64,000 bases of DNA from Eledone cirrhosa (GCA_964016885.1 OZ024745.1:106516001-106580000), one strand, 5' to 3'. Numbered from the stretch's first letter, positions 8,118 through 61,240 are shown. Notes: generated by a model not told the origin, from the sequence alone. Program-made: numbers and translations.

Positions 8118-8181
8118 AACGAACGACCAGAATTAGCAGTCGAAACGGCTTGAGCTCAGCCGTCGGGGTCCTACTCGTTCC
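8118..8181 (+). mobile_element. Truncated copy of TA-inserted family G (3' half of HHR)
   Basis: CCAGAATTAGCAGTC-GAAA-CGGCT-TGAGCTC-AGCCG-TC-GGGGTC, matching 29774-29964. Confidence 0.7.
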
Positions 8182-10248
8182 TATATATATATATATATAT
8201 ATATATATATATATATAGTTGAAAATGAACAGAAAAGGAATAGATAGATAGATAGATAGATAGATAGATAGATAGATAGATAGATAGAATATAAAGGGAT
8301 AGGGAGAGAGATAGGTGGAGGGAAAGAGTCAAATAGAGAAGGGAAGAGAGAGACTGTTAGGGTTAGACGCGCTACTGTTGCCCTTTTCAACTTTATTCTG
8401 GTGCAAAGGAGTAAATAAGGGAAAAACTGAGTTTCGTTTTCAAAATAAAATTTAAAAGCTGGTAAAGAAGTAGGGAAGGGGCTTTAAATGAGGCTGTTAG
8501 GTGGGAGAGTGGATCTAACAAGAAATGATAGCAAACTATAGGAATTTGTGTTATTTTAGTGTATATCTACACGTTTCTACATCTGTGTAATGCTTGATTA
8601 CACATTTGGCGCCTGTTAGTTCTTCTGTCCCTCTACCCCTCTCCATCTCCTGGCCATCTTCAGCTGCGACCAAGCACTTACGGAACCAGATGGGAATATG
8701 AACAGGGGTGAGAATGAAGAAAGGCGGGACTCAGTGGGAGTGTCAGATAGAGAAATGGAGAGGCAGAAAGAAAGTGAAAGAGGGATGTACAGAAAGAATG
8801 AGTGAGTGAGAGAAAGAGAATCTCGATAAGAGAAACGAGAGGTGTGTTTAAACTTAGATAAGAAACATCTTGTAAGAGACACTGTTTATTAGGTGCGGGT
8901 GTTAAAGTGTGCATAGTTCCGTTCTTCTTCTCAGCCTCCTCTTTCTCCTTCTAATTTCATGAAATACTAGGTATTTGGAGATGGAGCATTATTATGATAT
9001 GTTTGGACACTGAAGCTGACATTGTAAGTTTCCTCCATCATATCCAACAAAGAAGGATGTAGGTATGTCCATGTGGTTAAGAGGTTCTTTTTTGTAATCA
9101 TGTGGATCTGGGTTTCATCCTCCATCGTGGTAATTTTTGGAAAATGTATTTTGCCATAGCCTCGGGTTGTCCCTCGGCTTCTGAGTGAAACTCGGTAGAT
9201 GGAAACTGTGTTGAGAGTTGTTTGATGAACTAAACAGGCTCTTGACAAAATGATATGTTATTTGATATTATCAACAAACCTTTCGATTCATTTAGAACAG
9301 TCCATTATGTTGCAAGAAATTCGGATTTGTTCTCCGGCTATTTTCCCTGTCTCCAGTATCAATCGGGGAGTCCATGAAACAAACTATCCTACGTAGTGCA
9401 CACACTGCTACTTAAGCCAAATAAGAACCACTATTCCGAGCCAACAAGAGAATCTTTATTGCGAGCGAGAGCCACTATACATTCGCTCGATTAGATGTAA
9501 ATAGCAGTTCAACCACCCTCTAATTACTTACTGCTCTCTTAAAATATATGGATCTATTGAATAATTATGGCCGGAAAAAACCCCCAAAAAACATGAAGTA
9601 AACATGGATAGAACTCTTTATGTCATATGTATTTTCGAAGTGGTGTTACATGGAGCTAAACAACAACAACGACACTGACGACTAAATCGTTTCATTTCGT
9701 TTTCTGATAGTGCTTTCATATTGTATATTCATTGGTGCTGCTTTTCAGGTGATACCAGTAGCGGATCAGATTTGTTTTTAAGAAGAGCGAAATGACTTTT
9801 CTTGCAACACGCTCAGCTCTTAACCACTTCTGGAGAAAGACACGTTGTGTATGGTCCTCCACAACCCTTCCCACAGTGCAACACAGCAGAGAGAGGGGGG
9901 GGGGGTGTACACACAAAACGACATACAATCAGACAGAGTAGATGAAAAGCAAAAGTTAGTCATGAATTAACCCCATTCTTTGACTAGTTCTTCATTTATC
10001 GACTCCGGAAAGAGGAAATGTACAATTGACCTTGCCTTTTACACAGTCCAAATATTTTGTAGTCAAAGAAATTCTTTATGGAGAATACATAGGTTCTTTT
10101 TTTTTTATTATTTGTAATTTAATTTTTAGGTGTATACCACTTTTAATACTTGTCTTTACAAAGTTTCACTCTAGTCTATTAATAGTAGATACGATATTCA
10201 ACGTGGAAGAACGAGGCGTTAATCAATGTGAACGAGTATTATCTAAAG

Positions 10249-10642
10249 CATTGGTTCCCAGACTGTGTGCTACGGGCGTAATGGTGCAGCGAGAGATGTA
10301 ACTTGTTGCGCCAAGAAAGATCAAGATCTTTTTTCCAAAATATAAAATAAAAAATAAAAATAAAAATTGAAATTCCTAATAATTTAACTAAACAGTGAAT
10401 GAAACTATTCCCAAAGAAAAACAAAAAAATAATAATAACCAAGCGCATGTATCTCATTGATAACTTTACTCCATTTGATGAAAGAATAAAGTGCGAAACC
10501 GTTTTCTGCTTTTCAACTTTATGATATGCTAATATACATAAATATCTATTTTCAATACAGTTTTGAATTTAGGAACAAAGTGAGCCACAATGTTTTTTGT
10601 TGTTCTAAAGTGTGCCGGATGTAAATCATGTTTCGATAAATG
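10249..10642. mobile_element. Possible old hAT-type MITE
   Basis: Left end CATTGGTTCCCAGAC resembles the TIRs of the 16833 and 31031 elements; right end degenerate; no clear TSD. Confidence 0.3.
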
Positions 10643-59300: not shown

Positions 59301-60416
59301 CGCTAAGATTAGTCCACGTCCACAGTGGCACAGTCGGAAAATCTAGTCGGTATCTATCGGCCAGGTCAAATTGGCCGATTATCTGTTTGAGGCTGTTACA
59401 CCCCACTTTATCGGGACATGCTCCCACATAGTCCCAACGTGCATCTAGAATTCCATTCCAGTCCCCCACTAAAAGCAAGGAGCGGGACGTTCCCAGAAAA
59501 GTCTCTAGATGTTTGAAGAAGTCTGGCCGCGGGGTCCCGGATGGGGCATATGCGGCCACCAGCCTGAAGGCACCACCTTCACTACCGTCAACGTCTAGGA
59601 CCACCAGTCGTCCCTCCGGGTCCAGGTATACCGTCTGTGTTACGAGGTCCTGGTGTTTCCGCAGCAAAACGGCAACCCAGCCCCCATCTCCCGGCTGACA
59701 GAGAGATGCGTAGATCTCAAAGTCGTCGAAGATGGGGGCCAGTTGGCGCTCGCTGTGGATCCTGGACTCGCAAATGGCTACTACATCCATACTGTGCGAC
59801 CTGAGATCGTTTAAGAGTTTGCCCTGTTTCCAGGGCATCCCCAGGCCGCGTACATTCACACATCCAACTCTTATATTGGCCATGTTGGTGCTGGAAAATT
59901 AAATGAAGAGGAAAAGAAATCACTCACCTCTTCGTCTCCTGGGGACCAGGCTGCACAATTTCCATTGGGATGTTGGAGGGTATGTTTGGTGGGGTGGTGG
60001 TTTCTGTCGGGGTGGGGACGGAGGTGTTTGGTGGGTAGGGGGTGACTGTGTGGGGGTGCATGTGGTGGGGAGACCTTTGAAGAGGACGCGGTTAATTGGT
60101 TTCACGCAGGAATTCCCCATGTCCTCTTCAAATGTTTCTTTTAGGGATCTATAAGTTCCTATAGGGACCCTAACAGTTTTAGGTTCGTTTTTTTGTTTTT
60201 GTTGGGGCTATCCAAAGTTTTCCCTTCGGTTTTGACCAAAGGGTTGTTTTTCATGGTCTCCATCAGTGTTCTATTTTCTTCGTTTATGTAAGTGTATGTG
60301 TACGTTTCCTGTGTTGTGTTTGTTTTTGTCTGTGGTTCCTGCGTGTGTTTTCTCTTTGTTGTGGGTGCTTTGTTTTCGGGAGGGGGAACTTTGTTTGTGA
60401 TTTTTGTGCTGTTTGA
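56346..60416 (-). mobile_element. Decayed Tx1/L1-clade LINE within a (GATA)n array
   Basis: ORF1 tail, then APE domain (NVRGL, VAICES, VGDWN, SYLDRV, SDHKLV, GPGYWELN), RT (KSPGLDG, LDQSKAFDRVDH, KLLGVWF) and CCHC finger (CPRC..ETVAHAFVHC); AATAAA at 3' end; frameshifts; QGCPLS/YADD region missing. Confidence 0.92.
59014..59883 (-). pseudogene. Tx1-type ORF2 apurinic-like endonuclease domain
   Basis: 289-aa ORF with canonical APE motifs, frameshifted relative to the downstream RT. Confidence 0.88.
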
Positions 60417-61044
60417 CAGATAGATAGATAGATAGATAGATAGATAGATAGATAGATAGATAGATAGATAGATAGATAGATAGATAGATTGACAGATAGA
60501 TAGATAGATAGATAGATAGATAGATAGATAGATTGACAGATAGATAGATAGATAGATAGATGTGATATTAGCTCTAATCATCAACATAATATTTACTTTC
60601 CTTGCAATGAAAGTTCACCAGAGAAGAAAATATGATCCCTATGGTGTTAACAGTAAGATCATACTTTGATTCCTGCTATCTGAACCGTTTATTATACCAT
60701 TTTCTTTACCCACCATTTATACTATATGCTTATGTAAGCAGATGCTGGAGTTCATGTGAGGTAGACCATCATATGTTCGTGTCAGTAAGTATGTAATCTC
60801 TGATGCCTTTCGATTAAAAACAATAAAAAATGACACGAACAGAAATGGAGAAAAGGAAGAACTTTTAAAAATACATATTACCGGCATCAGTGTTAAATGT
60901 ACTATGTACTCTCTCTCTCTATATATATATATATATCACTCTCTCTCTCTCTCTCTCTCTATATATATATATATATATATATATATATATATATATATCA
61001 CTCTCTCTCTCTCTTTATATATATATATATATATATATATATAT

Positions 61045-61240
61045 AACAAAGAAAGTGTGGTAAGATACCAGGTGGACCATATCGCACCAGAGTACTCGAT
61101 ACTTAGGGTAGTAGAGTGGGCAATAGGAAAAGAATCAGGGCGGCTAAGCTCCGGCCGTTTCGACAGCTAGATCCGAACTGAGTTCGGATCTAGCTGTCGA
61201 AAAGGCCGGAGCTCAGCCGCCGGGGTCCTGATTCTTTCCC
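61045..61240. mobile_element. Family G palindrome (divergent subfamily)
   Basis: Same tail sequence; centre GACAGCTAGATCCGAACT-G-AGTTCGGATCTAGCTGTC. Confidence 0.75.

What the first reader, a model, noticed from the sequence alone, without database searches (positions are those of the whole stretch)
8118..61240. Family G palindromes fold back exactly on ribozyme stem II, erasing the CUGANGA half
Copies at 29774, 42348, 45356, 47650 and 61045 (plus the fragment at 8118) carry a clear HHR 3' half, typically GCCGTC-GAAA-CGGCT-TGAGCTC-(A/T)GCCG-TC-GGGGTC. None has CTGANGA. In four copies the symmetry centre is a hairpin with a related loop (..TCCA), which looks like native stem II. Immediately 5' of it, the expected core is replaced by the reverse complement of GAAA-stem III. 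Inference: nascent cDNA snaps back on the ribozyme's own hairpin and self-primes second-strand synthesis, which would explain inverted pseudo-LTRs. Loop orientation relative to the long tail differs between 47650 and 29774/45356, consistent with a hairpin intermediate or later flipping.
Basis: partly seen in the sequence, partly recalled or inferred. Interest (0 to 1): 0.75.

Follow-up and report, generated by a model that had tools for sequence, protein, structure and literature searches.

The report
Twin-primed Penelope ends, promoter inside ribozyme
These palindromes are head-to-head stubs of a very abundant Penelope-like jumping gene whose hammerhead ribozyme is complete in the parent, and they likely form when both cut DNA ends copy the RNA up to its likely capped start inside the ribozyme and are then joined, not when one copy snaps back on the ribozyme's own hairpin.

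Summary
The six copies are real: (TA)n-embedded palindromes with the 3' half of a hammerhead on each arm and a tail of about 75 nt, usually on one arm. At least 15,251 exist genome-wide. The parent is a 3-kb Penelope-like element with Hydra-clade motifs. Its ribozyme is complete (6,342 copies), but the core reads UUGANAA (U3-A8), not CUGANGA, and helix II is long. The palindrome centre is not the native loop: 76 different centres occur in 107 copies, and no arm passes position -8. Arms stop at TT(T/C)|AGTCC, an initiator-like site inside helix II, often with an extra non-genomic G. The G falls on either arm (13 tail arm, 14 tail-less, 2 both). 44 of 104 junctions cannot come from tail-first snap-back, and three insertions join arms of two families head to head. 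Best reading (0.7): twin target priming at two internal start sites, run-off at a capped 5' end, then end joining. Snap-back remains possible for the other 60. The architecture is known, and unreviewed scan notes reached this reading on other DNA of this genome. The start site is inferred; no RNA was tested.

The parts
8118..8181 (+). Single family G arm (from +4 to the inner end TTCC|TA) preceded by 6 nt of the inverted tail; in (TA)n
29775..29964 (.). Palindrome: inverted arm with tail (29775 to about 29911, reaches +2) joined to a direct tail-less arm; GTCGAAA 29922-29928, predicted cleavage site after 29947
42350..42585 (.). Palindrome with tails on both arms; left arm has an internal deletion at an AGAG microhomology; direct arm starts near +1 (42446)
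45356..45545 (.). Palindrome, tail on the inverted arm; same centre as 29774 despite a different downstream subfamily marker
47651..47842 (.). Palindrome, tail on the inverted arm, but the tail-less direct arm is the one that reaches +1 (A at 47785): not producible by tail-first snap-back
   Evidence: same class
61046..61240 (.). Sister-family palindrome: both arms reach +1 (61179 and 61181) with one G between them (61180) that is absent from 3 of 3 natural full copies of this family, which have T there
47785..47792 (+). The shared 5' boundary AGTCCAGA (+1 = first A), inferred transcription start inside ribozyme helix II
   Evidence: start-site role inferred
42316..42348 (.). (TA)n target run between a family H palindrome and the family G copy; every copy has such runs on both sides

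Best explanation
Family G palindromes are the two short, head-to-head arms of single insertions of a Penelope-like retroelement, and they likely arise by twin target-primed reverse transcription that runs off the RNA's likely capped 5' end inside ribozyme helix II. Shown: the parent (about 3.0 kb, RT plus C-terminal GIY-YIG-type region) has a complete type I hammerhead fold with a U3-A8 core and long helix II. Arms end outward at two fixed TA sites (TTCC|TA and CTTCGT|TA, about 75 nt apart) and inward at TT(T/C)|AGTCC, often with a non-genomic G. Inferred: a promoter in the pLTR starts at that A, so the RNA's 5' copy holds only the 3' half of the ribozyme. The endonuclease nicks both strands of a (TA)n target. 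Each 3' end primes at one of the two internal sites, which gives the one-sided tail. Both cDNAs run off the cap, which adds C. Their 3' ends are trimmed by 0-8 nt and joined by host end joining, with little microhomology or templated filler. The two cDNAs usually come from one RNA or one source. The finished palindrome is a by-product with no complete ribozyme.
For: Parent and ORF. Complete ribozymes: 6,342; U3/A8 in 44 and C3/A8 in 6 of 50 rows, position 7 variable. Boundary: the longer arm stops at +1 or +2 in 53 of 107 copies and at -1 in 8 more; none passes -8. YTAGTYC is kept in the sister family while the loop around it diverges. Extra G: 700 junctions have both arms at +1 with a 1-2 nt spacer; of the first 50 listed, 37 single C/G, 6 single A/T, 7 two-base, while the native base is T in 44 and C in 6 of 50 rows, never G. 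Of 42 such junctions fetched, G was on the tail arm in 13, the tail-less arm in 14, both in 2, and tail-less plus T in 1; 7 had other spacers and 5 had no tail found. In the unselected set, arms stopping at +1 before filler show G in 10 of 14 (4 tail, 6 tail-less). 30 of 104 junctions have bases on the tail-less arm that the tail arm lacks, and 14 would need a loop under 3 nt. 3 of 3 matches to a family H-family G pattern are clean head-to-head chimeras joined at both families' inner boundaries within one (TA)n site. PMC11167929 (passages and part 2): a PLE protein cleaves and extends both target strands in vitro, and the tail lies between its two RT start sites. PMC11702581 (passages): an extra G marks capped 5' ends in L1 insertions.
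Against: No RNA 5' end was observed; the start site rests on sequence signature alone. 60 of 104 junctions also fit a fold-back. The pooled sample leans to the tail arm being longer (53 vs 31, 20 equal, p=0.02), though the first 46 were even (19/19/8). Arms are of the same subfamily in 79 of 84 (permutation mean 18.9, max 32), which fold-back predicts directly and twin priming explains only with a same-RNA or same-source preference. Cross-family chimeras are rare (3 for the one pattern tried), and a deletion between neighbouring elements could mimic them. 17 of 107 longer arms run 2-6 nt past +1. Many ORF-bearing copies extend through the whole ribozyme, so not every template begins at +1. 2 of the 27 oriented single-C/G cases belong to a subfamily with native C at -1 and are ambiguous. 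Samples were selected by a pattern that requires a centre in helix II and come from the first 200 Mb of contig C1.
Confidence: 0.7

Rival explanations
1. One cDNA, primed at the tail end, runs off the same 5' end and turns back on itself with 0-2 nt of homology (RT or polymerase theta), making the second arm. This could account for part of the copies alongside twin priming.
For: 60 of 104 junctions compatible; tail arm longer in 53 vs 31; arms concordant in 79 of 84; some junctions re-copy filler bases (e.g. C1:86726017); common offsets of 4-6 nt resemble hairpin loops.
Against: Cannot make 44 of 104 junctions, G on the tail-less arm with a 1-nt spacer, or H-G chimeras. Flipping does not rise with arm divergence.
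Confidence: 0.14
2. Two cDNAs are joined as in the best explanation, but the boundary is an RT stall at the inner hairpin of helix II (or an RNA processing site), not a transcription start.
For: +1 lies in the 3' strand of a predicted inner hairpin; the peak is split between +1 and +2; no RNA data; the TATA-like stretch near -30 is missing in the sister family.
Against: A stall does not explain a G specific to +1 (10 of 14 at +1; at +2 the next base is C in 12 of 15). The YTAGTYC motif is kept while the inner hairpin sequence is not.
Confidence: 0.1
3. One reading: the cDNA snaps back on the native stem II hairpin and self-primes, erasing CUGANGA.
For: Centres do lie in helix II. One of 50 listed long-centre junctions keeps the native inner loop (C1:105515489). 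In the TTCAG subfamilies a 4-bp native ATTC/GAAT match can explain CTGGACTGAAT.
Against: The native loop is absent from all window copies and no arm passes -8 in 107 copies; 76 distinct centres; the parent core is not CUGANGA; family H palindromes keep a full CUGANGA ribozyme in both arms and centre about 100 nt upstream of it.
Confidence: 0.04
4. A single palindromic MITE-like unit amplified as DNA, or re-retrotransposed as a fixed unit.
For: High copy number, TA flanks, some centres recur.
Against: 76 distinct centres in 107 copies; the same centre recurs across different subfamilies; the tail is on exactly one arm in 104 of 107 (60 of these were selected for having a tail); direct arms continue into the PLE ORF in some copies (L079, L114).
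Confidence: 0.02

Closest known systems
Hydra clade of endonuclease-bearing Penelope-like elements (PMC8557442; section 11, passages and supplement rows seen; lists Hydra-1_Obim)
   Same: [quoted passage not shown]
   Different: Core is U3-A8 with a long helix II, while that paper reports canonical ribozymes in the clade; tail about 75 nt rather than 30-40; tens of thousands of arm-only insertions. Identity with Hydra-1_Obim was not tested.
Poseidon PAc of Anolis, in vitro (PMC11167929; part 2 and passages seen)
   Same: Both target strands cleaved and extended; two internal RT start sites bracket the tail; AT-rich targets
   Different: Different clade; canonical C3-G8 core; the passages I saw do not address the inverted junction or a start site inside the ribozyme
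Inverted pLTRs with junction palindromes in Adineta vaga Penelopes (PMC3846280; passages seen)
   Same: Head-to-head pLTRs, optional tail, palindrome at the junction, Inr-like sequence in the pLTR
   Different: Explained there by self-priming on an antisense template; the junction data here favour two cDNAs
U3-A8 hammerheads of Schistosoma Cercyon PLE (PMC4209133; passages seen)
   Same: Same core covariation, type I fold, palindromic loop III
   Different: Those are minimal hammerheads; here stem III has 5-6 bp and helix II spans about 55 nt
L1 twin priming (mechanism recalled; extra-G passage seen in PMC11702581)
   Same: Both target ends prime; the inner junction is made by end joining; extra G from the cap
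   Different: In L1 the two segments are adjacent parts of the RNA (recalled); here both cover the same 5' stretch, which gives a palindrome

Membership tests
EN+ Penelope-like element | Single ORF with PLE-type RT and C-terminal GIY-YIG endonuclease | tested here: met
   RT motifs FDIESYY, SMGATDS, YRDDG in a natural 497-aa stretch; RVT_1 hit for 1 of 6 stretches scanned; VIYQC..AYIGLT region in 5 of 5 copies; all copies seen are broken
EN+ Penelope-like element | pLTR as partial tandem or inverted copy, with optional one-sided tail | tested here: met
Hydra clade | RWK and DKT motifs | tested here: met
   RLRWR and SDKTG against the definition; RWR here rather than RWK
Hydra clade | CxCx5C linker; CCHH absent from EN | tested here: met
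   CNCPDRSxC in 3 of 5 copies, third C mutated in 2; one C between VIY and YIG
Hydra clade | (TA)n insertion; short element | tested here: met
   end counts; repeat unit 3,013 nt in L095
Hydra clade | Placement in the RT phylogeny | not tested
   No tree was built; no reference Hydra proteins were fetched
Type I hammerhead ribozyme | Three helices around YUGANRA..GAAA..UH with a 3-8 pair | tested here: met
   U3-A8 in 44 of 50 rows; three-way fold in 3 of 4 full-length copies folded; 89.8% of cells paired, with 3 helix II pairs changed on both sides, all from the split to the sister family
Type I hammerhead ribozyme | Canonical CUGANGA core or Rfam hammerhead hit | tested here: not met
   0 of 100 listed full copies have C3-G8; no hammerhead family among 26 Rfam matches; one subfamily has a C3.A8 mismatch
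Type I hammerhead ribozyme | Self-cleavage | not testable with these tools
   needs in vitro transcription
MITE | Fixed unit with terminal inverted repeats copied as DNA | tested here: not met
   76 centres in 107 copies, one-sided tail, link to a PLE ORF
Non-LTR retrozyme | Tandem repeats each with a complete hammerhead (10.64898/2026.07.22.740005, part 1 of 5 seen) | tested here: not met
   Window copies are inverted and lack the 5' half

The most novel reading that the evidence does not exclude
Inverted pseudo-LTRs of Penelope-like elements are made by a two-headed reaction in which both target strands copy the RNA to its cap. This family places its promoter inside the ribozyme, so every transcript begins with a harmless half-ribozyme and ends with a whole one. 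At the template's 5' edge the RT can realign from GTC to the downstream GCCGTC and add repeats, as telomerase does.
Probability: 0.3. Interest if true: 0.75.

Novelty: new variant of a known kind. Interest (0 to 1): 0.5.

Why it matters
How Penelope-like elements, the sister group of telomerase, make their inverted ends is still open: PMC8557442 names it as a task for an in vitro system, and PMC3846280 proposed self-priming. This family gives more than 15,000 independent junctions with a single-base boundary and a cap-like mark on either arm, which points to twin priming and fixes the exact RNA, start sites and products to test. It also shows a ribozyme that CUGANGA-based and Rfam searches miss. 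The insertion type itself is known and the stubs are likely inert.

Tried and rejected
Searched for the predicted CTGANGA parent: 41 matches (30 inspected) and 14 matches (all inspected). None has the native upstream helix. I read them as junction products (arm end plus G plus AGT), CpG-decayed left arms or chimeras. I briefly took CTGA(A/T)GA-GTCCAG for the parent and dropped it once natural copies showed TTT|AGTCC. A splice-acceptor reading of TTTAG was considered and dropped, since no common upstream exon is seen. Later flipping: no trend with arm divergence. Rfam: no hammerhead among the 150 listed of 346 window matches or at a full copy. PDB sequence search: no match. Pfam: 5 of 6 stretches had no family; some may be antisense or neighbouring frames. 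RNA: no RNA holder listed. Two contig sets of unknown kind from one sample were laid; they show strand-switch joints near +1 but may be the assembly's own sample, so they were not used. One search used a wrong gap length; its 61 hits were left out of all junction counts. Literature searches listed no paper tying twin priming or a cap G to PLE inverted pLTRs; subscription papers and unseen supplements may hold one.

Full report
Observation. The window lies in a 3.0-Gb animal genome (G000, C5:106516001-106580000). Earlier scan notes call it octopus; I did not test this. Genome-wide there are 67,416 exact 13-mer arms (control 3), 15,251 exact palindromes with a 0-30 nt centre and 1,909 with 31-60 nt. 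About half of the exact arms therefore sit in such palindromes.

The parent. One locus joined the tail directly to an ORF start (L071). That piece had 1,046 candidates, of which 40 were scored, and 20 were fetched in full. They show a repeat unit of about 3.0 kb with RT motifs and a C-terminal CNC-x5-C linker and VIYQC..AYIGLT region. These match the Hydra clade definition in PMC8557442 (section 11); no tree was built. Upstream of GAAAC the natural sequence is ACCCC-TTGANAA-G-NT-CGGCTATT..about 33 nt..A(A/T)TAGCCG-TC. A pattern for this finds 6,342 copies; none of the 100 listed has C3-G8. In 50 parsed rows (46 distinct sequences) the core is U3/A8 in 44 and C3/A8 in 6, with all four bases at position 7. 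U3-A8 is a known PLE variant (PMC4209133, passage). Three of four full-length copies fold as a three-way junction, with z-scores of -0.6, -2.8 and -2.6. A sister family changes three helix II pairs on both sides (one lineage split, so weak). Rfam does not detect it. Cleavage is untested.

The junctions. I sampled 107 palindromes from contig C1: 49 at first and then 60 further stretches selected for having a tail. All were chosen by a pattern that requires a centre within 60 nt. The tail is on one arm in 104. Tail-less arms end at (T/C)TCC|TA in 76 of 104, and tail arms at CTT(C/T)GT|TA in 85 of 104. There are 76 distinct centres, and the same centre recurs in different subfamilies, which rejects a single amplified unit. 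Arms share their subfamily marker in 79 of 84 classifiable copies (permutation mean 18.9, maximum 32). Numbering the A of TT(T/C)|AGTCC as +1, the longer arm stops at +1 or +2 in 53 of 107, and none passes -8. The native inner loop is kept in 1 of 50 listed long-centre junctions (by eye).

Why +1 looks like an RNA 5' end (inference). TTAGTCC/TCAGTCC fits the initiator consensus (recalled), and YTAGTYC is kept in the sister family while the loop around it diverges. Penelope has an internal Inr promoter (PMC2377424, passages). Among 700 junctions with both arms at +1 and a 1-2 nt spacer, the first 50 hold 37 single C/G, 6 single A/T and 7 two-base spacers, although the native -1 base is T or C and never G. 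An extra G marks reverse-transcribed caps in L1 (PMC11702581, passage). In the unselected set the base before an arm ending at +1 is G in 10 of 14, whereas before an arm ending at +2 it is C in 12 of 15. Oligo(A)/(T) runs at centres also fit run-off ends. The window's 61045 copy shows the one-G junction. The few CTGANGA look-alikes are, on my reading, arm end plus this G plus A.

One cDNA or two. In a fold-back the tail arm must come first and reach further in by a loop of at least 3 nt. On the most generous parsing, 30 of 104 junctions have bases on the tail-less arm that the tail arm lacks, and 14 need a shorter loop; 60 are compatible. The G lies on the tail arm in 13, the tail-less arm in 14 and both in 2 of 42 fetched double-long junctions. 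Later flipping would grow with age, yet the mirror type is 10 of 31 with identical arms and 20 of 59 with differing arms. Three insertions join a family H arm, with its own CUGAUGA ribozyme, to a family G arm at both families' inner boundaries. In vitro, a PLE protein cleaves and extends both target strands from two start sites that bracket the tail (PMC11167929). Against: the tail arm is longer more often (53 vs 31, 20 equal; p=0.02), chimeras are rare, arms are nearly always of one subfamily, and some fillers re-copy junction bases, so fold-back may contribute. Many ORF-bearing copies extend upstream through the whole ribozyme, the usual partial tandem, so template jumps or read-through RNAs also occur.

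Mechanism. Shown: parent, ribozyme fold, two outer TA ends, inner boundary, extra G on either arm, junction diversity. Inferred: transcription from +1, nicking of both strands, twin priming, run-off, end joining. A consequence is that the RNA's 5' pLTR lacks the ribozyme's 5' half, so 'CUGANGA erased' is better put as 'never transcribed'. The coincidence with helix II is specific to this family: family H palindromes in the same window centre about 100 nt upstream of an intact core.

Comparison and novelty. Inverted pLTRs with a one-sided tail, (TA)n targeting and U3-A8 cores are all in print. My searches listed no paper deriving the inverted arm from twin priming or reporting a cap G on both arms; the library lacks most subscription papers. 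I formed this reading before looking up scan notes. Several unreviewed notes from other places in this genome state the same mechanism; they are not independent support. A word search found no note on the cap G or the U3-A8 core. Interest 0.5.

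Noticed in passing
G000 C1:80881059; L179; Arms stopping at +2 are preceded by C in 12 of 15, and some carry one to three extra GTCCAGAA(A/T)TAGCC units. RT may realign from the template's 5' GTC to the downstream GCCGTC and re-copy, like telomerase repeat addition; slippage after insertion is not excluded.
   Followed up: partly
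window 35820-36170, 40812-41165, 41960-42313: Family H palindromes with a complete CTGA(A/T)GA hammerhead in both arms and centres about 100 nt upstream of the core; the arms end near a shared boundary.
   Followed up: partly
window 22594-22880, 3800-4100, 28805-29181, 4637-5102, 30441-30909: Further long inverted repeats of other families; the first two have CTGATGA..GAAA in both arms.
   Followed up: no
L305, L306, L307; also L031, L039, L044, L045, L052, L054: Head-to-head chimeras between family G arms and arms of other hammerhead-bearing families.
   Followed up: partly
L237, L238, L253: One subfamily has the core CUGAGAA (C3.A8 mismatch) yet made many insertions; its ribozyme may be impaired, in line with cleavage being dispensable in PMC11167929.
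   Followed up: no
L241:1496-1593, L263:1496-1595: TATTTAAA or TATTTATT lies about 30 nt upstream of +1, overlapping the 5' strand of helix II; it is absent in the sister family and the region is AT-rich.
   Followed up: partly
window 29898-29921 and 45479-45502: Two copies 15.6 kb apart share an identical centre though their downstream markers differ; local gene conversion or a recurrent junction.
   Followed up: no
window 42415-42425 and L002: The same AGAG-microhomology deletion joins tail to stem III in two unlinked copies that have tails on both arms.
   Followed up: no
loop III, e.g. window 47812-47818: Loop III holds the self-complementary GAGCTC, which could dimerize two RNAs and pair with a dimeric protein to supply two templates (speculation).
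   Followed up: no
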